DNA of 21,213 nt from a virus, in the UHGV virus genome UHGV-0220583; one strand, given 5' to 3'. The position numbers and the translations under genes were made by a program. Each line of letters starts with the position of its first letter. The first letter of the stretch is position 1. Under the pieces are notes generated by a model that ran no database searches, was not told the DNA's origin, and was given only the letters and a program-made list of their open reading frames with translations. Of the stretch, positions 5,621-17,854 are shown in pieces.

Positions 5621-5926
5621 CTACTCCTGTACGAAAATGAGGTGGCTGTATGTGCCGAGGTTGGTTTTGGTGGGCTCGTCTGGTGCGCCAATATCGCAGC
5701 CAACGAGTAGCGCTCCGTTAATGCCTAGCTGAGGATATTGCTCAAGAAGATTTACACCAGTGACCAGTGGCACGCCACAAAGAAGCGGGTTTCCGCCACT
5801 ATCTTGCACATCCATAATCCAGCCAGCAGAATCACGCCAAATAACCCTTAGCGTATATGTTATCTCTGCTAACTGTATACGAAATAGCTGATTATCCGGT
5901 GACAGAGGGATTTCAGTTACATTCAT
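5621..5926 (-). CDS. tail/baseplate protein, unassigned
   Basis: 101 aa ORF, ATGA overlap with the upstream gene (start 5926, upstream stop 5923..5925), tightly packed in the tail module. Confidence 0.4.
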   Translation of the reverse strand: MNVTEIPLSPDNQLFRIQLAEITYTLRVIWRDSAGWIMDVQDSGGNPLLCGVPLVTGVNLLEQYPQLGINGALLVGCDIGAPDEPTKTNLGTYSHLIFVQE

Positions 5927-6549
5927 TGGACACCTATAGCGTTACCAATACTGGTTCCTTTTAGCCCATCAAACCAACCCGATGACTTAATTACCGATTC
6001 ATTTACTGGGGTTGCAGATTTCGTCCCGGAATTCTGGACCGCCGATGTGCTGACGCCATCCTGCATATCGGATTTATCAGCGACAGTGGCATTTTTTGTC
6101 TGCGTTATGATGACCTCACGCAGGGTTAGTGTGCAGTTCAGAACGTTCTCGCTGGTTTTGTCCGTTGTCACCTCGATGGCTCGCACCAGCATATTGCTGT
6201 ACACCCGCTTTCCGGTCACCACATCGAACGGCACCCGAGAGGACTGGAGATCCAGCAGTTGCTGATAGGTCTCTTTCGGGCTTAGTCCGGCGCTGAGGCC
6301 GATTGAAGATGTATCAATGAAGTCCAGCAACGAACCGCCACCAGCGAAGCCGCATTCCATTGTGACTTCGCTGGGGCGCTTATACGCATGATCGGCGATG
6401 AAGCCCGAAGCGCTATTCGTTGTTGGATTCTCCACCGGGTGCTCAGTAATTTCGAGCGCATCAGAATGCTTTTCGGAGACGACCACGCTGGGGATCAGCA
6501 GGCCAATTCGCCGGGATTGCTGGCGAAAAATCGCTGATAAAATATCCAT
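5923..6549 (-). CDS. tail protein immediately downstream of the tape measure, unassigned
   Basis: 208 aa ORF whose start overlaps the tape measure stop; assigned by position only. Confidence 0.4.
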   Translation of the reverse strand: MDILSAIFRQQSRRIGLLIPSVVVSEKHSDALEITEHPVENPTTNSASGFIADHAYKRPSEVTMECGFAGGGSLLDFIDTSSIGLSAGLSPKETYQQLLDLQSSRVPFDVVTGKRVYSNMLVRAIEVTTDKTSENVLNCTLTLREVIITQTKNATVADKSDMQDGVSTSAVQNSGTKSATPVNESVIKSSGWFDGLKGTSIGNAIGVQ

Positions 6550-8564
6550 TATCTCGGTCCTGCGGGGAGTTGCTGGGTTAACTGTGAATTCACGCCCTTT
6601 TGACGGTCAACAGTCAAACGGGCAGCTTCGCGAGGATCGGAAACGCCGTGGATGTTAATGTTCGTTTCCTGCTGAATCACCGGGGCGCTGGTGGGCATAT
6701 TGCTCATTACTTTCGGAATGTAGTTGCGCGTTTCCTGCGGCATTAGCCCCATTCCATAGCGCTTAACATTCCCGATCCCCCAGTTATATGATGCCAGTGC
6801 TTTGCTAAGGTCTCCGCCGTTCTGCCGCAACAGCTGGCTGAGGTACTTAGCTGCGGCCTGAGCTGACTTTTGCGGGTCGAATACATCGTTTCCGCGAAGG
6901 CCCATGTCTCGCGCCGTGCCATCCATGAACTGGAACAGACCTTTAGCGCCAGCGCCTGAAACGGCGAACTGATTACCGCCAGATTCCGTTATGGCCACAC
7001 TGCGCAATAACCCCTCCGGAAGCCGGTAGAGCTGTTCCAGGTTGGTAAGCATCGGCTGCATCCATCCCAGCAGTTCAGAGCCTGCTTTGGTTGGCTGTGG
7101 CCGCTTAACTGACTGGCCGAGCTGTTCAGGCTCATCATCACCGAACCAGCCGCGCACCGTTCGGCCCACGCTGCGAGGATCGAATCCCCAGTGCTCTTTA
7201 ATCCAGTCGGCTGTACCGTTGGCGCTGTCTGTTACCATCGGCATCGCTGACGGATTTTCGCTGCCCTGATTTAGCAGCTGTTTGCCTATACTAGCGGCCT
7301 GCGCCCAGTTGCCATCTTTTATGGCATTCAGCAAATCAGCGATCATGTTCAGCATCTTGCCGAACTCACCCATTTGCGAAATGAAGTTGCTAAAATCCCA
7401 CTTTAGGGACCATGACTTGGGGTCAATACCGAGCAACTTAGCCAGCGCTTTTGTCAGGTCCGTAACAGTCTTTTTCAGGTCACCAATCATTTTGACGGCC
7501 TGATCAATTTCAGTCTTCCATTTCCCCCAGTCAATCAGGCTTTTGCCACCTTCTTTCCACGTCTGGTAATCATCCAAGAGCAGACCAAGTGCAATAATAA
7601 GCGTCGTTATCATGCCCAAGGGTGATGACATGAAAGCGGTATTTAGCAGCCGCCATGCAACCAACAGCCCACTGAACAATGCGATAAGCTGCTGCGTGGC
7701 TGGGTTCAGCTTTTTGAACCAGGCGATCACACCCTCAACAGCTTGCCCAGTTCGCCATAACACGCGGGTAATCGCGTCACCTGCCCAGAGAATTCCTTTG
7801 ATGATCTTCGTGATGACCGCTTCAATCTTCGGCCAGTTGTCGAGTATCTGCCTGCGGAAGTTATCAATACTGCCAGCAAGGCCACCAGCTAGGTTAGAGC
7901 CAATCTTGTCTTTCGCCTGTCCAAGCGTCATCGTCAGATTACGCATGGAGGTCATGAAAATATTGGACTGTTTAGCCGCTGACTCAGCATTAAAACCAAT
8001 ACGCTTTGCCGTCAACGCGTACTCAGAACTGAGCTGCCCCATCCCTCTGCGCATCGCCATCAGCGTGTTTTCATCGATGCCAAGCATCTGCGCGTATTGT
8101 TTCGCGCGGTAATACGGCATGTTGTTGAGCTTTTGCCCAACGCCAGTAAAGATGGCCGCAGTATCACGCATCTTTCCGCTGGCATCGCGGGTCTGTACGC
8201 CCAGACGGTTCAGGAACCCTTCCGCCCCCGGATTGCTACGCATGAAACCAGCCAACCCTTCAAGAGAGGACATGGCCGACTCGGCGCTGGCACCGGTTTG
8301 CGATGCGGCATAGCCCAGCGCTTTGATGCCCTGGACGCTGGCCCCCGTCCGCTGGGATGCCCAGTAAATTTTATCCAGACCATTCGCGATCTGGGTGGTA
8401 AATCCGACAATGCTAAGCGCTGAGCCTTTCACCACCGCGCCGACCTTCAGAACGTTCGCGGTAACGCCTTTCAGCACGGCTTCAAACTTATTAGCGCCAG
8501 CCTGATCGATATCGAATCCCAGCGAAACAAGGAAATCTTTAATCGTATCTGCGTTACCGCTCAT
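6549..8564 (-). CDS. tail tape measure protein with C-terminal lytic transglycosylase (SLT) domain
   Basis: 671 aa ORF after the sheath-tube-chaperone set. Start has GGAGA 7 nt upstream. Hydrophobic segments at roughly aa 290-330. Around aa 515-605 it carries family-1 lytic transglycosylase motifs: AITESGGN, GLFQF, SYNWG. Confidence 0.8.
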   Translation of the reverse strand: MSGNADTIKDFLVSLGFDIDQAGANKFEAVLKGVTANVLKVGAVVKGSALSIVGFTTQIANGLDKIYWASQRTGASVQGIKALGYAASQTGASAESAMSSLEGLAGFMRSNPGAEGFLNRLGVQTRDASGKMRDTAAIFTGVGQKLNNMPYYRAKQYAQMLGIDENTLMAMRRGMGQLSSEYALTAKRIGFNAESAAKQSNIFMTSMRNLTMTLGQAKDKIGSNLAGGLAGSIDNFRRQILDNWPKIEAVITKIIKGILWAGDAITRVLWRTGQAVEGVIAWFKKLNPATQQLIALFSGLLVAWRLLNTAFMSSPLGMITTLIIALGLLLDDYQTWKEGGKSLIDWGKWKTEIDQAVKMIGDLKKTVTDLTKALAKLLGIDPKSWSLKWDFSNFISQMGEFGKMLNMIADLLNAIKDGNWAQAASIGKQLLNQGSENPSAMPMVTDSANGTADWIKEHWGFDPRSVGRTVRGWFGDDEPEQLGQSVKRPQPTKAGSELLGWMQPMLTNLEQLYRLPEGLLRSVAITESGGNQFAVSGAGAKGLFQFMDGTARDMGLRGNDVFDPQKSAQAAAKYLSQLLRQNGGDLSKALASYNWGIGNVKRYGMGLMPQETRNYIPKVMSNMPTSAPVIQQETNINIHGVSDPREAARLTVDRQKGVNSQLTQQLPAGPR

Positions 8565-9167
8565 TGGCCGCTCTCCATTTATCTACCCGGGCGTCGTTAT
8601 CCTCGCGCATGTCGAGGTAGTCATTGAGAAGCGCGATACGGCAGAGGTCTACCGCACCGCTGTTAAGGTCTTTCTGGTCAATATGGAAGGCAAGCGCCGG
8701 ACGAAGAATAAAGTCTTCACCGCCCGGCAGGCTGTTGAAGGTTATTCCGCTGGCGGGGTGGGCGTCTCGCTGGTAGGGAGTCCTTGCAAAAAATTTCCCA
8801 GCGAGTCGGCGACCACCCGCGCCACCAGTTGCAGCATGGTCAACAGGTCGATATCGTCAAACGCCATTTCGCCATGCTGGCAGACCGGCACCCAGCCTTT
8901 CATGTGCTCGCGTGAAACAACGGAAAGGCAGGGGAACAGGATAGCGTCCACGTCGCCATCGCTCAGATCGGACACAGCATTGGCAATCTTTGGCAGGATG
9001 GTAGCCATCGCGCCTTCGGTGTCTTTGCTGCTGATCTTCTCCTGAACGCTCCGAAAGTCAGAAACCATCCCGGCCAGCACCGGCAACAGCTTGCGGGACA
9101 CCTTCAGCTGTTCGAAAACGCTGAGCTTTGCGGTGCGATATTTCACGCCTTTAATTTCGAATTCCAT
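8554..9167 (-). CDS. tail assembly chaperone, predicted -1 frameshifted long form (gpGT-like)
   Basis: The -1 frame relative to the 141 aa chaperone is open for about 60 codons from the slippery site through the entire chaperone-to-tape-measure gap, ending at TAA 8554..8556, 11 nt inside the tape measure gene. The +1 frame closes almost immediately. Confidence 0.5.
8742..9167 (-). CDS. tail assembly chaperone (short form)
   Basis: 141 aa acidic ORF between the tube and tape measure genes, the conserved chaperone position; contains the slippery site near its 3' end. Confidence 0.6.
   Translation of the reverse strand: MEFEIKGVKYRTAKLSVFEQLKVSRKLLPVLAGMVSDFRSVQEKISSKDTEGAMATILPKIANAVSDLSDGDVDAILFPCLSVVSREHMKGWVPVCQHGEMAFDDIDLLTMLQLVARVVADSLGNFLQGLPTSETPTPPAE
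8793..8799 (-). promoter_or_regulatory. slippery heptamer G GGA AAT, candidate -1 programmed frameshift site
   Basis: Minus-strand GGGAAAT, phased X XXY YYZ on the chaperone zero frame (CTG GGA AAT), 17 codons before the chaperone stop. Same class as lambda G-T GGGAAAG. Confidence 0.5.
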
Positions 9168-9170
9168 GCG

Positions 9171-9611
9171 TTAAAACTCCCCGAGCAGCTGGTCAATCTT
9201 GCCGCAGTCGAACACCCAGGAAACAGTCCCGCCCTCTTTGGCGTTATTGAAATCAGGCTGTTTCTGGAATGCACACGAACGCGCAGTAGAAATATCACCC
9301 GATGCCGTGTTGCGAATGACGATCACGTTATTGCCCCAGGTGGCAGAGGACTGGCTTTGCGCGTTATACGCCAGAGACAGCTTCTTGTTCACCGGGGAGG
9401 TTTTCAGCAGCGTCACCGTAATGGTGCCTGACTTATCGGCGTGCAGGCTGTGCATCACTTCGCCATCGGCACCGATGGTCATAGTGTTCTTGTTGCCGCC
9501 CATGGTCTGGGTGATACCTTCCTCAGAGTTCGCAGAACCCTGACCAAGATCGATAACGCCGGTCGGCCCGGTGAGCGACGCGGTTACATCGAGAAAAGAA
9601 TAAGTTGCCAT
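9171..9611 (-). CDS. tail tube protein
   Basis: 146 aa ORF immediately downstream of the sheath gene; size and position typical of contractile-tail tube proteins. Confidence 0.6.
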   Translation of the reverse strand: MATYSFLDVTASLTGPTGVIDLGQGSANSEEGITQTMGGNKNTMTIGADGEVMHSLHADKSGTITVTLLKTSPVNKKLSLAYNAQSQSSATWGNNVIVIRNTASGDISTARSCAFQKQPDFNNAKEGGTVSWVFDCGKIDQLLGEF

Positions 9612-9621
9612 TTATCGCTCC

Positions 9622-10782
9622 TTAGCGAACCACGTTGATCTGCACATCGGCATAATGAACTGCGCCAGCCAGCTTACAGGCCACCTGGATTAACGGTGCT
9701 TTGCGCGCTTCGCGGTCGGCCTGCGCCTGTTCGGACAGCGGTTGCGCATACACGTAATAGCCTTTGGTCAGCGTATCGCCGGAATTCAGCTGTCCGATAG
9801 GGCCACCATTCCACACGCCAGCAGCTACCAGACCGTTCGTGACGGACTGATCCATGGACTGTTCAACGTTGGAAAGCAGACGGGTCACACCGGCATCAGT
9901 CTGCGGAATTTTGGTGGTGCTGGTGTAAAGCAGGTTATAGAGGTTGGTCTGAACGTAGTTCTGCAACCAGTCGAGCCCGTGGCGCTCGTCGAAGAAGTCG
10001 CCGTTTGCCATCACACCCTGTTGCAGGATCGCCGTGTCGTTGGCGTAGTACACGAACACGTTCGCATTCTTCACATCCACAGCCGCCGCCTGTCCTACCG
10101 TCAGCGTTTCGTAGGTTACGCTTGGTTCCTGTTTGAACTTCAGGGTAATGGTGGTATTGCTGCCGTTGAAATTGACAGTAAACGCACGACCGAAAGCAGA
10201 AACCGCTGCGTAAGGGCTGCTGGTGGAATACTGAATAAAGGTACGGGCATACTTGCCAGCCTTTAATTTCGACGCAACATCGGTCGTCGAAGTCGTGCTG
10301 ATAATCTCGGCGTCGGCAGAGGTCACACCAAAGATACGGCTAAGGCTGGACGCTTCAATAAGTTTGGCGACCTCAATCACGTCATCAGCATCAAGCACAT
10401 CGCCACCAGCGACAACATCATCAGCGACAACCAGCCCATACCAGTTGGTATATTGCAGGCAGGCATTAACGGCTTGCACGATAGTTTCAGTATCTCCACT
10501 CTCGGAAGAACTCAGCGTCTTCGCCCAGCGACCAACATAAACCTGTGACGGCTTCGGTGACTGGCTGAAGAAAACCTGCGCCGCTTCATATTCCGGGCTG
10601 TCGACTCCGAAGTCCTCGCCAATGTCCTCAACGGACGCATAAAGGCGAATGCGTTCCTGCACCGGAATGACAGTGGAAGAGCCGAGGATCAGCAGCGCGC
10701 CGAAGTTACGACCAGTAGCCGCTTTCGGCGAGATGATCACATCAACGTTTACAACGTTGGATACAGGTAAGCCCTGTGCCAT
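9622..10782 (-). CDS. tail sheath protein
   Basis: 386 aa ORF; ATG at 10782 with GGAGA 8 nt upstream; followed by tube, chaperone and tape measure in the canonical myovirus order. Confidence 0.65.
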
Positions 10783-15762: not shown

Positions 15763-16536
15763 TCAGGCGAGATAAGAATGAGGGTTGGGGAAGACGATCT
15801 CTTTGTAACAGCGGCAGTTCGGGAGCTCGCCAGCGTGACCGGTCATGCCGTCAAGCGTTGGAGGTTTGCCCCATTCGACAAACTTCCCTTCCATCTCTCG
15901 ATGAGAATGCCGGACGTCGCCATCTTCGGCTGTACGCCAGATATAACCATTCGAGCCGATTGACAGCGCACGCGCCTGATCCAGCGCTCCGGTTGCACGT
16001 CCAAGTTCGGTACGGGCGATAAGGTTCGCTCGTGAGCGTGACACGTCACCGGACGCTGCTATCTCTTTCGCGAATGGTTCAGCGCGGCCACCAGACACAA
16101 CGGCCTCGATGGCCTTGTTCTGAATGTCATACACCCGATCGGCGGCCTCAAGAGGCAGAGATTTGATGTACTTAATTTGCTCGGCGACGATGGATTTCAT
16201 CACCTGGCCTACCGGGGCGCGGTCAACCATGTTGCGCATCTCTGCGCTGATGTTCCGGCTGTGTTGACGCCACTGCTTTTCATTCTGGCGCGCTATGTCT
16301 GCGGTGAAGTTCTCAGCTACCTTCGTCGCCCAGGGGGTGATGATTTCGCTGTAGCGCTCCAGCGCATCCATTATTTCGGTAACGCTATCATTTGAACCAT
16401 CGTAGCGCCCATTTACGATATCCCCGACCGCCCGCGCTATCTGCCGTAGGCTCGTTCGATATCGGATCTCCGCCTGGCGACTCTGGCGGTTTGTCGCCAA
16501 GTTCGCCGATGCCTGGCGGCGCTTCGTCTTCGGCAT
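15763..16536 (-). CDS. minor head morphogenesis protein, MuF / SPP1 gp7-like
   Basis: 257 aa ORF directly after the portal gene. ATG at 16536 has GAGGA 8 nt upstream but overlaps the portal 3' end by 149 nt in another frame; an internal ATG at 16371 is an alternative start with a weaker SD. Confidence 0.6.
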   Translation of the reverse strand: MPKTKRRQASANLATNRQSRQAEIRYRTSLRQIARAVGDIVNGRYDGSNDSVTEIMDALERYSEIITPWATKVAENFTADIARQNEKQWRQHSRNISAEMRNMVDRAPVGQVMKSIVAEQIKYIKSLPLEAADRVYDIQNKAIEAVVSGGRAEPFAKEIAASGDVSRSRANLIARTELGRATGALDQARALSIGSNGYIWRTAEDGDVRHSHREMEGKFVEWGKPPTLDGMTGHAGELPNCRCYKEIVFPNPHSYLA

Positions 16537-17854
16537 TCTCTATGTCCTCGTCGGTAATGGATGCCCCGATGCCGGTTACGTCAGAATTTTCGCGCAAATC
16601 GGTCATAGCGGCTTTCAGTGTCATCAGACCATCACCCAGCGCCGTACTGATTGCGTTGGTAGTGTTTAACGCCACCGTTGAGCGATCGACATCAGACATT
16701 TGCCAGAGCGGGTTAAACTCAAACGTGAAATCGTCCGGCAGCGGCTTACCGAGTTCCGAGCGGTGCATAATGTCCAGTATCCGGCGCATCGGCATCCGTA
16801 AGCGGCGCTCCTGCAATGAGCTCACCCGGTCGTAATAGTTGGCGAGGTCTGCATCACCAGTAGAGAAGCCTTTCGGGGATTGACCGAACAGGCGTACCAG
16901 CGGGATACCAACGGCACCGCTGATCTGCTCAGCAAACTGCGAAAGAATGTCATCCAGACCACTAAAACTGTACTGGTGGGTTTCGAACTTATCCCGCGAG
17001 TCCATGAGCGTCATACCTTCATTGCTCTGGAACTGGCGGATCAGGTCGATGTTCTTCAGCAACGCTTCGAACGCCGGGCCTCCAAGCGCGATAAGCTCGC
17101 GCAACTTCTCCACGCTATAGGTACGCAGATGCGCTTTATAGACCAGCTGCGCCGCGCCGACAGTGGCGCTATCGAACGCAGTAAGCCGATCCCAGATACG
17201 CTCTACAACCGACATTCCCCATTCGTTTTCGGTCATCTTCTGCTGGAATGGCAGCGTGACGCCATCAAAGCGGATCAGGCGGCTGTGATGGATGCGCCAG
17301 GCCGGAATGCCCGTTGCGGTGGTCACCACGTCGTAAAACTCAGGCTTGCCGAGGTCCGGCCCCATCTCTTTAATGCGGCGTGTCAGCACCGGGTTAATCA
17401 TCCAGCGGTCGAGCGGGAGAATGCCCTTAAACTTGCCCTCGCCAATGGTTTCGAGTCGCAGCGGGGTCATTGGTGCTTGCCCCTCGATCATGATGAAGCC
17501 GACCGCGCCGCCGTAGAGACGCGACCATTTCAGCACGTCGTTCAGCGCATCCCAGATCTGCAACTCATCCAGTTGCGCTTCGAGGGTGCCACGGTCTTTG
17601 GCGTCAATCTCCGAAGTGATGCGAATGCCCTTTCGGGTCATATCGTCCGGGATAGCGTCGACCGCTTCACCGATAACCCACGAACCGCGATATGACCATT
17701 CCACCAGCATGCGGTTGCGGCTGGTGAAGTTCGCCCGGTAGGTCGATGCTGAATGCTGGTTAGGCGTCTGCATCCCAACGCGGGCGACGAAGTTCTCGTA
17801 GCCGTCAGCGGTGGCCTGTGCCGTTCGCTGAGAGGATTGCTTGTTTCGTGCCAT
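16388..17854 (-). CDS. portal protein
   Basis: 488 aa ORF whose ATG overlaps the terminase large subunit stop (TGATG); acidic disordered C-terminus; followed by the MuF-like gene. Confidence 0.7.
   Translation of the reverse strand: MARNKQSSQRTAQATADGYENFVARVGMQTPNQHSASTYRANFTSRNRMLVEWSYRGSWVIGEAVDAIPDDMTRKGIRITSEIDAKDRGTLEAQLDELQIWDALNDVLKWSRLYGGAVGFIMIEGQAPMTPLRLETIGEGKFKGILPLDRWMINPVLTRRIKEMGPDLGKPEFYDVVTTATGIPAWRIHHSRLIRFDGVTLPFQQKMTENEWGMSVVERIWDRLTAFDSATVGAAQLVYKAHLRTYSVEKLRELIALGGPAFEALLKNIDLIRQFQSNEGMTLMDSRDKFETHQYSFSGLDDILSQFAEQISGAVGIPLVRLFGQSPKGFSTGDADLANYYDRVSSLQERRLRMPMRRILDIMHRSELGKPLPDDFTFEFNPLWQMSDVDRSTVALNTTNAISTALGDGLMTLKAAMTDLRENSDVTGIGASITDEDIENAEDEAPPGIGELGDKPPESPGGDPISNEPTADSAGGRGYRKWALRWFK

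What the first reader, a model, noticed from the sequence alone, without database searches (positions are those of the whole stretch)
8554..8799. Canonical -1 programmed frameshift in the tail assembly chaperone (G GGA AAT)
The 141 aa chaperone has GGGAAAT in the X XXY YYZ phase 17 codons before its stop. The -1 frame is then open for about 60 codons (…GKFFARTPYQRDAHPASGITFNSLPGGEDFILRPALAFHIDQKDLNSGAVDLCRIALLNDYLDMREDNDARVDKWRAANER) across the whole 180-nt gap to the tape measure gene, while the +1 frame closes immediately. This matches the conserved gpG/gpGT arrangement of long-tailed phages and accounts for the otherwise unexplained gap at 8565..8741. The heptamer ends in U rather than the lambda G.
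Basis: partly seen in the sequence, partly recalled or inferred. Interest (0 to 1): 0.45.

Follow-up and report, generated by a model that had tools for sequence, protein, structure and literature searches.

The report
Programmed frameshift in tail chaperone gene

Summary
On the minus strand a 141-aa tail assembly chaperone (8742-9167, Pfam Phage_TAC_15) lies between the tube gene and the tape-measure gene. It reads CTG GGA AAT TTT TTG at 8801-8787. The -1 frame is open for 81 codons (8799-8557; stop 8554-8556) up to the tape-measure start.

The -1 extension is a real coding sequence. It matches Pfam DUF6889 and phrog_4364. It keeps a length of 70-90 codons in 195 of 196 distinct related loci. 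Third-codon-position variability moves from the zero frame to the -1 frame right at the tract. No conserved start codon exists.

The 13-nt tract holds three in-phase heptamers: G_GGA_AAT, A_AAT_TTT and T_TTT_TTG. GGA, AAT, TTT and TTG are frozen at synonymous positions, but the first G is not. Sixteen loci have lost G_GGA_AAT and kept the architecture. Four lineages have a -1-frame stop directly before the T-run, so only T_TTT_TTN (the phage P2 site) can work there. Two relatives keep only G_GGA_AAT.

No conserved downstream RNA structure was found. A conserved Shine-Dalgarno-like GGGUGGUC lies 11-17 nt upstream.

Verdict: an ordinary gpG/gpGT-type frameshift, already annotated for the homologue in Klebsiella phage Mulock but annotated as two genes in RefSeq.

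The parts
8742..9167 (-). Tail assembly chaperone, short form (zero frame, 141 aa; TAC-N)
   Evidence: ORF and translation. Pfam Phage_TAC_15 at E 4.4e-33, 114.9 bits against a cut-off of 22; phrog_1688 'tail assembly chaperone' at 3.4e-57. AlphaFold2 model of the homologue P0004 is confident over this domain, pLDDT 86-97.
8787..8799 (-). Composite slippery tract G GGA AAT TTT TTG: three in-phase heptamers, G_GGA_AAT (8799-8793), A_AAT_TTT (8796-8790) and T_TTT_TTG (8793-8787)
   Evidence: Phase checked. Among 68 distinct homologous CDS the codons are GGA 66/68, AAT 66/66, TTT 67/67 and TTG 64/65, while other Phe and Gly codons in the gene are used almost evenly. Among 200 distinct loci, all three heptamers are present in 183, the first is lost in 13, only the T-run is left in 3, and only the first is left in 1.
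8811..8818 (-). Shine-Dalgarno-like GGGUGGUC (contains GGNGG); candidate upstream frameshift stimulator (inferred)
   Evidence: It is the strongest predicted pairing to the 16S 3' end anywhere in the gene: -12.2 kcal/mol in the window, mean -9.6 over 68 sequences, and 91% at or below -6, against a background of -1.9 +/- 1.1. The observed mean is -10.0 against -6.7 +/- 0.2 under synonymous resampling. The Arg codon here is the rare CGG in 45/67 sequences, against about 8% elsewhere in these genes. GGNGG placed 6-17 nt before the motif is listed as an experimentally proven stimulator (PMC4066793).
8554..8799 (-). -1 frame extension (81 codons plus stop). It overlaps the chaperone 3' end (8742-8786) and then fills the gap 8565-8741. 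The predicted long form (TAC-NC) is 204 aa.
   Evidence: Translation. Pfam DUF6889 at 1e-10 and phrog_4364 at 2.6e-17. Length is 70-90 codons in 195/196 loci. Per-position entropy in the -1 frame is 0.83/0.74/1.47 downstream, and the overlap also follows the -1 frame. No ATG/GTG/TTG ORF of at least 50 aa exists in this frame, and gene callers choose inconsistent non-ATG starts.
6549..8564 (-). Tape measure protein (671 aa) with C-terminal SLT lytic transglycosylase domain; its ATG at 8564 overlaps the end of the extension
   Evidence: phrog_2276 'tail length tape measure protein' at 4e-225; Pfam SLT at 1.3e-24. Its GGAG ribosome-binding site at 8576-8573 lies in the conserved Trp-Arg codons of the extension.
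9171..9611 (-). Tail tube protein (146 aa), immediately upstream of the chaperone
   Evidence: Pfam KPP10_Orf10 at 5.9e-60. Named Phage_Tube_PhiTE/DUF3277 in other sources.
9622..10782 (-). Tail sheath protein (386 aa)
   Evidence: Pfam DUF3383 at 4.5e-102; phrog_205 'tail sheath' at 5e-127.

Best explanation
The chaperone gene is decoded in two ways. Most ribosomes terminate at 8742-8744 and make the 141-aa chaperone. A minority slip back one nucleotide on the tract G GGA AAT TTT TTG (8799-8787) and continue in the -1 frame to 8557, making a 204-aa protein. That protein has the same N-terminal chaperone domain, then a roughly 45-residue flexible linker, then a C-terminal helix (the DUF6889 region). 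By analogy with lambda gpG/gpGT and P2 E/E+E', the shared domain would coat the tape-measure protein, and the extension would recruit the tube protein so that tube and sheath polymerise to the measured length. Neither form should be present in the virion. The slip can happen at any of three consecutive in-phase heptamers, and the product differs only at residue 127 (Phe or Leu). Which heptamer dominates is not settled. A_AAT_TTT and T_TTT_TTG are the ones under sequence constraint, T_TTT_TTN alone suffices in four lineages, and G_GGA_AAT alone is left in two. There is no conserved downstream RNA structure. A conserved Shine-Dalgarno-like GGGUGGUC 11, 14 and 17 nt upstream of the three heptamers is the likely stimulator. 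Shown here: the anatomy, the conservation, and the coding status of both frames. Inferred: that ribosomes actually shift, the ratio of the two products, the role of the Shine-Dalgarno-like element, and the protein functions.
For: Position: the gene sits between tube and tape-measure genes in a complete E217/Pam3-like myovirus structural module. The chaperone matches Phage_TAC_15, and the -1 product matches DUF6889 and phrog_4364. The -1 frame is open for 80-86 codons in nearly all of 71 genome loci at 43-100% protein identity, and in 195/196 distinct loci overall. tblastn finds both halves in two frames in 35 phage records, including Bordetella, Ralstonia, Burkholderia and Acinetobacter phages. 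Synonymous positions of GGA AAT TTT TTG are frozen, while the neighbouring Ser codon uses all six codons. Third-position variability switches from the zero frame (0.50/0.36/1.27) to the -1 frame (0.83/0.74/1.47) at the tract. In the dual-coded overlap the zero-frame second positions are the most variable. There is no consistent start: RefSeq starts the 'DUF6889 family protein' at ATA, and called fragments range from 46 to 75 aa. In L114, L142, L177 and L190 a TAG/TGA/TAA in the -1 frame lies directly 5' of the T-run and the extension is intact, so the shift must occur on T_TTT_TTN there. P2 uses TTTTTTG without a hairpin (PMC3091744). Related KPP10-type phages have an invariant GTTTTT at the equivalent site (PMC12846349). 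The Mulock homologue is deposited as a frameshift product. The Shine-Dalgarno-like element is described. The structure model shows a confident N-domain, a disordered linker and a confident C-terminal helix.
Against: There are no experimental data for this family. In E. coli reporters all three heptamers are close to background without a stimulator: 0.069%, 0.070% and 0.118% against 0.055%. With a strong pseudoknot only A_AAU_UUU responds well (11.4%), while G_GGA_AAU gives 1.05% and U_UUU_UUG 0.77% (PMC4066793 Table S3). No such downstream structure is conserved here. The Shine-Dalgarno-like element falls within the published 6-17 nt range for the first two heptamers (14 and 17 nt) but not for T_TTT_TTG (20 nt). 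Its conservation statistics are inflated by shared ancestry, and it is absent from some distant relatives. A minority of assemblies carry T7 instead of T6, which gives an in-frame fusion. Those cases could point to slippage at the nucleic-acid level or may simply be homopolymer errors.
Confidence: 0.9

Rival explanations
1. The shift occurs specifically and only at G_GGA_AAT, and the following T-run is incidental.
For: G_GGA_AAT is in phase and resembles the lambda site G_GGA_AAG. It is the only canonical heptamer left in Salmonella locus L143 (GGG AAA TAT TTT G) and in Bordetella phage IFTN9 (GGG AAA TAC TTT), both with intact extensions. The GGNGG element is 14 nt before its second base, within the published stimulatory range.
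Against: Its first G varies as freely as any Leu third position (CTG 54, TTG 8, CTT 3, CTC 2). It is lost in 16 of 200 distinct loci that keep the extension. In four lineages a -1-frame stop lies between it and the T-run, so it cannot be used there. TTT and TTG are frozen at synonymous positions, which an incidental T-run would not be. In E. coli G_GGA_AAU gives 0.069-1.05%, about 40-fold less than G_GGA_AAG.
Confidence: 0.12
2. The gap ORF is a separate gene (a 'DUF6889 family protein', as in RefSeq and in the phage yong1 record) translated from its own start codon.
For: PGAP annotates a 63-aa CDS beginning at the chaperone stop. The yong1 record has a 58-aa CDS with a TTG start. Many database entries exist for such fragments.
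Against: In the window there is no ATG/GTG/TTG giving at least 50 aa in that frame, and RefSeq has to use ATA. Called starts differ from genome to genome, giving 46-75 aa. The frame is open and conserved as protein (FARTPxQRD...) back to the slippery tract, well upstream of any proposed start. The slippery tract itself is frozen at synonymous sites.
Confidence: 0.03
3. The long form arises by transcriptional slippage: RNA polymerase adds one U in the U6 run, and ribosomes read the edited mRNA normally.
For: The invariant core includes a T6 run. Assemblies with T7 that encode an in-frame 212-213 aa fusion exist, in E. coli ISC7 and about nine Logan assemblies.
Against: From general knowledge, productive slippage by bacterial RNA polymerase normally needs runs of about 8-9 or more identical bases. 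This model does not explain why GGA and AAT are frozen. It does not explain relatives that have no homopolymer run, such as L143, Bordetella IFTN9 and Acinetobacter AAATTTTATT. The T7 contigs are most simply homopolymer sequencing errors.
Confidence: 0.04
4. The open -1 frame and the heptamers are coincidental, and no second product is made.
For: About 4.5% of codon positions in this window start a -1 run of at least 81 codons. Another in-phase heptamer followed by a long -1 run (A_AAG_GGC at 6600) is evidently chance.
Against: The product matches protein-family profiles at E 1e-10 and 2.6e-17. The length is conserved in 195/196 loci. Codon-position periodicity follows the -1 frame. The slip tract is frozen at synonymous sites. 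The two-frame architecture is conserved down to about 30% identity.
Confidence: 0.01

Closest known systems
Bacteriophage lambda gpG / gpGT (-1 frameshift at G_GGA_AAG; Levin 1993; Xu, Hendrix & Duda 2004, 2013, 2014, as summarised in PMC5009743)
   Same: The gene order is the same: tail tube protein, chaperone, -1 extension, tape measure. [quoted passage not shown] The first heptamer here differs from lambda's only at the last base.
   Different: There is no detectable sequence relationship; Pfam finds only Phage_TAC_15 and DUF6889. The host tail is contractile. The last base is U, which lowers shiftiness in E. coli about 40-fold. Two further overlapping heptamers are present and are better conserved.
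Bacteriophage P2 E / E+E' (-1 frameshift at T_TTT_TTG, no stimulatory hairpin; Christie 2002, as cited in PMC3091744)
   Same: It is a contractile-tail phage with the identical heptamer T_TTT_TTG in phase, no downstream structure, and the chaperone pair just before the tape-measure gene. In four lineages of this family T_TTT_TTN is the only usable site.
   Different: The protein family is different; there was no Pfam hit to P2 gpE families. The tail module is E217/Pam3/KPP10-like, not P2-like. Two additional heptamers and an upstream Shine-Dalgarno-like element are present.
Klebsiella phage Mulock CPT_Mulock_014/015 (GenBank MN098327)
   Same: It is a true homologue, with 56% identity over the whole 204-aa fusion. 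The tract GGGAAATTTTTTG and the GGGTGGTC element are identical. It is deposited as 'tape measure chaperone frameshift product' with a joined CDS.
   Different: It is an annotation only. The genome announcement does not mention or test the frameshift.
Tail assembly chaperone locus of Pakpunavirus/Vandenendeviridae and Andersonviridae (PMC12846349)
   Same: These phages have the same kind of tail (KPP10-type tube, DUF3383-type sheath). The downstream 'hypothetical protein' was re-interpreted there as the -1 extension. The slip motif is poly-T (invariant GTTTTT), and the evidence is likewise purely comparative.
   Different: Those are lytic Pseudomonas and enterobacterial phages. Homology of their chaperones to this one was not tested here. 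The motif reported there is shorter and does not have three heptamers.
dnaX / IS911-type -1 frameshifting stimulated by an upstream Shine-Dalgarno-like sequence (PMC4066793 and its reference B32)
   Same: [quoted passage not shown]
   Different: No downstream hairpin accompanies it. The heptamers are not the efficient A_AAA_AAG type. Stimulation is inferred, not shown.

Membership tests
gpG/gpGT-type tail assembly chaperone pair made by -1 programmed ribosomal frameshifting (Xu, Hendrix & Duda 2004) | Two overlapping reading frames located between the major tail/tube gene and the tape-measure gene | tested here: met
   Tube 9171-9611, chaperone 8742-9167, extension 8554-8799, tape measure 6549-8564.
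gpG/gpGT-type tail assembly chaperone pair made by -1 programmed ribosomal frameshifting (Xu, Hendrix & Duda 2004) | [quoted passage not shown] | tested here: met
   Three in-phase heptamers lie 17-19 codons before the stop. Synonymous positions are frozen in 68 distinct CDS. At least one heptamer is present in all 200 distinct loci.
gpG/gpGT-type tail assembly chaperone pair made by -1 programmed ribosomal frameshifting (Xu, Hendrix & Duda 2004) | The downstream frame is -1 relative to the chaperone, lacks its own initiation signal, and is kept open from the slip site to the tape-measure gene | tested here: met
gpG/gpGT-type tail assembly chaperone pair made by -1 programmed ribosomal frameshifting (Xu, Hendrix & Duda 2004) | The extension is under protein-level purifying selection | tested here: met
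   Codon-position entropy in the -1 frame is 0.83/0.74/1.47, and the switch occurs at the tract. Matches to DUF6889 and phrog_4364.
gpG/gpGT-type tail assembly chaperone pair made by -1 programmed ribosomal frameshifting (Xu, Hendrix & Duda 2004) | Two proteins with a common N-terminus are actually made in a fixed ratio, both are needed for tail assembly, and both are absent from virions | not testable with these tools
   This needs a western blot, mass spectrometry or a reporter assay, plus genetics.
Pfam Phage_TAC_15 (PF21822) | Score above the family gathering threshold | tested here: met
   114.9 bits against a cut-off of 22; residues 6-128 match profile positions 1-121 of 127.
Pfam DUF6889 (PF21829) | Score above the family gathering threshold | tested here: met
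   41.6 bits against a cut-off of 23.9, on residues 165-200 of the conceptual fusion, that is, the -1 frame.
P2 gpE / gpE+E' family | T_TTT_TTG slip site in phase, without a downstream stimulatory hairpin | tested here: met
P2 gpE / gpE+E' family | Sequence homology to P2 gpE | tested here: not met
   The Pfam scan of the chaperone and of the fusion returned only Phage_TAC_15 and DUF6889. It works like P2 E/E+E' but is not a member.
Lambda G/GT slip site | Heptamer G_GGA_AAG | tested here: not met
   The last base is U, giving G_GGA_AAU. The measured shiftiness of the two motifs differs about 40-fold in E. coli.
Shine-Dalgarno-stimulated -1 frameshift signals (dnaX, IS911) | [quoted passage not shown] | tested here: met
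   [quoted passage not shown] 91% of 68 sequences have a site at or below -6 kcal/mol at this position.
Shine-Dalgarno-stimulated -1 frameshift signals (dnaX, IS911) | The element measurably raises frameshifting | not testable with these tools
   This needs a reporter assay with synonymous mutations, for example CGG GTG GTC changed to CGT GTT GTC.

The most novel reading that the evidence does not exclude
The TAC_15/DUF6889 family carries a distinct, conserved frameshift cassette: a 13-nt tract with three consecutive in-phase heptamers plus an upstream GGNGG anti-Shine-Dalgarno pairing site, and no downstream structure. In this reading the three individually weak heptamers act additively, giving ribosomes three successive chances to slip into the same frame. 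That would set the chaperone ratio and make the signal robust to mutation. It would explain why lineages that kept only the first, only the first two, or only the last heptamer all still retain the extension.
Probability: 0.3. Interest if true: 0.4.

Novelty: new member of a known kind. Interest (0 to 1): 0.25.

Why it matters
The practical value is in annotation. DUF6889 is not a free-standing protein family. It is the C-terminal, frameshift-encoded part of a tail assembly chaperone. RefSeq currently calls it as a separate gene with an ATA start, and other sources label fragments of it 'lytic transglycosylase'. This prophage type occurs in 119 of 5426 complete E. coli genomes and in many other Enterobacterales.

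For the study of recoding, the family offers a natural series of variants in which one, two or three overlapping heptamers remain. With a reporter assay, that series could show how tandem weak slip sites and an upstream Shine-Dalgarno-like element combine when no RNA structure is present. The mechanism itself is the well-known gpG/gpGT arrangement and would not surprise a specialist.

Tried and rejected
1. Downstream stimulatory structure. Folding 8680-8786 gave -32 kcal/mol with z = -1.67 (12 of 200 shuffles fold as well), and its first substantial stem starts 17 nt after the T-run. RNAalifold on 50 diverse sequences found only 3 trivial pairs. A scan using the published hairpin rules found at most 16 of 68 sequences with a qualifying hairpin at any one spacing (a first attempt timed out). 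Rejected as a conserved element. Pseudoknots were not searched directly, but -1-frame third positions after the tract are freely variable.

2. A hairpin that encloses the slip tract (CUCGCUGG...CCAGCGAG plus GGGUGG/CCCACCC) appeared when 8720-8840 was folded. Its z-score is only -1.31, it is not conserved, and its 5' arm would be inside the ribosome at the moment of slipping. Rejected.

4. I looked for close relatives of the odd loci L143 and L114, to see whether their variant sites are fixed within clades. The best viral-contig matches were only 65-68% identical, so this remains unresolved. The same scans did turn up L177 and L190.

5. A second in-phase heptamer with a long -1 run (A_AAG_GGC at 6600-6594, at the end of the tape-measure gene) is absent from two relatives. 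Rejected as chance.

6. Christie 2002 (PMC135442) could not be read. P2 facts are taken from PMC3091744 and PMC5009743.
Full report
**What is in the sequence**

All genes of the 21-kb window relevant here lie on the minus strand. They form a complete myovirus structural module:
- small terminase-like DUF2280
- a 542-aa ORF in the large-terminase position (no Pfam hit)
- portal
- MuF-like protein
- DUF2213
- cement protein
- major capsid protein
- tail terminator
- DUF3383 sheath
- KPP10_Orf10 tube
- chaperone
- tape measure with an SLT domain
- Dit-like protein, plug, hub, spike and baseplate J

The DNA is 98.8% identical to Citrobacter phage Omnitron. It matches prophages in 119 of 5426 complete E. 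coli genomes.

The chaperone ORF (8742-9167, 141 aa) matches Pfam Phage_TAC_15 (E 4.4e-33) and phrog_1688. Its zero frame reads CTG GGA AAT TTT TTG CAA at 8801-8784. The -1 frame starting at 8799 is open for 81 codons, to a TAA at 8556-8554. That stop lies 8 nt inside the tape-measure gene, whose ATG is at 8564.

The statement that the +1 frame closes immediately is not: it runs 26-27 codons. This does not matter for the argument.

**Is it more than chance?**

In the 22 genes of this window the median stop-free -1 run is 10 codons. Only 4.5% of codon positions begin a run of 81 or more codons. In-phase X_XXY_YYZ heptamers occur 21 times in 6181 codons.

The -1 product also matches two independent family profiles. 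These are Pfam DUF6889 (E 1e-10, above the gathering threshold) and phrog_4364 (E 2.6e-17). The -1 frame is therefore a real coding sequence.

**Comparative evidence for a frameshift**

I collected these related sequences:
- 71 loci from species-representative genomes at 43-100% chaperone identity
- 176 loci from viral contigs
- several annotated phages

Among 200 distinct loci, the extension measured from the T-run is 70-90 codons long in 195 of the 196 that could be measured. The one exception, L110, carries a disruption.

tblastn with the conceptual 204-aa fusion finds both halves, in two different frames, in 35 phage records. These go down to about 30% identity and include Bordetella, Ralstonia, Burkholderia, Edwardsiella and Acinetobacter phages.

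Column entropy in a 50-sequence alignment shows the expected codon periodicity. Upstream of the tract, zero-frame positions 1/2/3 give 0.50/0.36/1.27. Downstream of the chaperone stop, -1-frame positions give 0.83/0.74/1.47. In the dual-coded overlap just after the tract, the most variable positions are zero-frame second positions, which are -1-frame third positions. Selection therefore moves to the -1 frame at the tract itself, not at some later start codon.

There is no ATG, GTG or TTG in the window that would give at least 50 aa in that frame. RefSeq has to start its 'DUF6889 family protein' at ATA. Database entries for these fragments start at different places, giving 46-75 aa, and some are mislabelled 'lytic transglycosylase'.

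The homologous pair in Klebsiella phage Mulock (56% identity, identical tract) is already deposited as a joined 'tape measure chaperone frameshift product'. The genome announcement does not discuss it.

**Which heptamer?**

The tract G GGA AAT TTT TTG actually holds three overlapping in-phase heptamers: G_GGA_AAT, A_AAT_TTT and T_TTT_TTG. All three lead into the same frame. The products differ only at residue 127...GNFFAR for the first two and ...GNFLAR for the third.

Codon usage in 68 distinct coding sequences:

| Position | Codons observed |
|---|---|
| Gly in tract | GGA 66/68 |
| Asn in tract | AAT 66/66 |
| Phe in tract | TTT 67/67 |
| Leu in tract | TTG 64/65 |
| Another Phe in the gene | TTT 35, TTC 32 |
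| Another Gly in the gene | GGC 28, GGG 12, GGT 10, GGA 8 |
| Ser two codons upstream | all six codons used |
| Leu supplying the first G | CTG 54, TTG 8, CTT 3, CTC 2 |

The Leu that supplies the first G is no more G-biased than other Leu codons. The constrained core is therefore A AAT TTT TTG, not G GGA AAT.

Tally over 200 distinct loci:

| Heptamers present | Loci |
|---|---|
| All three | 183 |
| First lost | 13 |
| Only the T-run heptamer | 3 (plus L142) |
| Only G_GGA_AAT | 1 |

In L114, L142, L177 and L190 the -1 frame has TAG, TGA or TAA immediately 5' of the T-run, and the extension is intact. In those lineages the shift can only occur on T_TTT_TTN. That is the site used by phage P2 E/E+E' (PMC3091744). 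It also fits the invariant GTTTTT reported for KPP10-type phages (PMC12846349).

Conversely, Salmonella locus L143 (GGG AAA TAT TTT) and Bordetella phage IFTN9 (GGG AAA TAC TTT) retain only G_GGA_AAT. Acinetobacter phage Ab105-1phi retains the first two. Ralstonia and Burkholderia phages have G_GGT_TTT/T_TTT_TTC and C_CCT_TTT at the same place. Each heptamer therefore seems sufficient in some lineage, and the position of the site is older than any one motif.

Published E. coli reporter values (PMC4066793 Table S3), against a background of about 0.055%:

| Heptamer | No stimulator | IS911 stimulators | IS3 pseudoknot |
|---|---|---|---|
| GGGAAAU | 0.069% | 0.112% | 1.05% |
| AAAUUUU | 0.070% | 0.355% | 11.4% |
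| UUUUUUG | 0.118% | 0.247% | 0.765% |

[quoted passage not shown] I cannot decide the in vivo share of each site from sequence alone.

**Stimulatory elements**

- The window's own downstream fold is not better than shuffles (z = -1.67), and its first real stem starts 17 nt after the tract.
- RNAalifold on 50 sequences finds essentially nothing.
- A scan using the published hairpin criteria finds at most 16 of 68 sequences with a hairpin at any one spacing.

This agrees with P2, where no hairpin exists.

Upstream there is a candidate. GGGUGGUC (8818-8811) is the strongest predicted pairing partner of the 16S rRNA 3' end anywhere in the gene. The value is -12.2 kcal/mol in the window. The mean over 68 sequences is -9.6, against a background of -1.9 +/- 1.1. 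91% of sequences are at or below -6.

Resampling synonymous codons gives -6.7 +/- 0.2 against an observed -10.0, and none of 300 resamplings reached the observed value. The Arg codon inside the element is the rare CGG in 45 of 67 sequences, against about 8% elsewhere in these genes.

[quoted passage not shown] Here the distances are 14, 17 and 20 nt for the three heptamers.

There are caveats. The sequences are related, so the statistics overstate the case. The element is not obvious in all distant relatives. I treat it as a reasonable inference, not a finding.

**How it most likely works**

By analogy with lambda (PMC5009743), the abundant short form and the N-domain of the long form would bind the tape-measure protein. 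The -1-encoded part would recruit the tube protein. Both would leave before the tail is finished. In lambda the ratio is about 30:1, and P2 frameshifts 2- to 3-fold more.

An AlphaFold2 model of a naturally in-frame homologue (P0004), built on an alignment, fits this picture. It shows a confident helical/beta N-domain (pLDDT 86-97), whose last helix ends at the slip site. A roughly 45-residue low-confidence linker follows, and then a confident C-terminal helix covering the DUF6889 core. These functional roles are inferred, not tested.

**Rival explanations**

- Independent initiation of a DUF6889 gene is contradicted by the missing and inconsistent starts, and by conservation reaching back to the tract.
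- Transcriptional slippage on U6 is unlikely. The run is short, GGA and AAT are also frozen, and some relatives have no run at all. I did find assemblies with T7 that encode in-frame fusions. They are probably homopolymer errors, but this was not resolved.
- Coincidence is excluded by the comparative data.

**Comparison with what is known, and verdict**

This locus works like lambda G/GT and, more closely, like P2 E/E+E' (same heptamer, contractile tail, no hairpin). It is not a sequence member of either family; Pfam assigns it to Phage_TAC_15 plus DUF6889.

The mechanism class is textbook, and one homologue is already annotated as frameshifted. The finding is therefore a new member of a known kind. 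Its value is mainly in correcting annotation, since DUF6889 is the frameshift extension of a chaperone. The family also offers a natural series of one-, two- and three-heptamer variants for studying weak tandem slip sites. Interest is low to moderate.

Noticed in passing
L258:1897-1910 (Logan SRR23924998 contig); protein cluster of P0004, including E. coli ISC7 CDL28562.1: About ten assemblies encode an in-frame 212-213 aa chaperone+DUF6889 fusion. The one contig examined has T7 instead of T6 in the slip tract. This could be a homopolymer sequencing error, a real allele that makes only the long form, or slippage at the RNA level.
   Followed up: partly
window 8554-8745 (-) and RefSeq locus L155:756-947: RefSeq/PGAP annotates the extension as a separate 63-aa 'DUF6889 family protein' starting at ATA. 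Other databases hold 46-75 aa fragments with differing starts, several of them named 'lytic transglycosylase', apparently by transfer from the adjacent tape-measure gene.
   Followed up: yes
window 6594-6600 (-): An in-phase A_AAG_GGC heptamer lies 17 codons before the tape-measure stop, and its -1 frame runs straight into the Dit-like gene (5923-6549). It is absent from Hafnia phage yong1 and Escherichia phage 689R2, so it is probably chance.
   Followed up: partly
window 8571-8580 (-): The tape-measure ribosome-binding site (GGAG, 8576-8573) lies within the conserved Lys-Trp-Arg codons at the end of the extension. This stretch therefore serves both as coding sequence and as an initiation signal, and the extension stop lies 8 nt inside the tape-measure ORF.
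   Followed up: no
[not shown]
   Followed up: no
L255 (Edwardsiella phage vB_EpM_ZHS), around GGG GAT TTT ATG: This distant relative keeps the two-frame architecture but has no canonical X_XXY_YYZ heptamer at the homologous position. At most a U_UUU tetramer is available, and its -1 frame is open throughout the gene.
   Followed up: no
L110, L146, L152: These look like decayed copies. The extension is interrupted after 41 codons in Enterobacter sp. R1 (L110). The chaperone genes carry frameshifts or premature stops in two Apirhabdus apintestini loci.
   Followed up: no
window 16388-16536 (-): The listed portal ORF (16388-17854) and the MuF-like ORF (15763-16536) overlap by about 150 nt. The upstream-most ATG of the MuF-like ORF is probably not its true start.
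   Followed up: no
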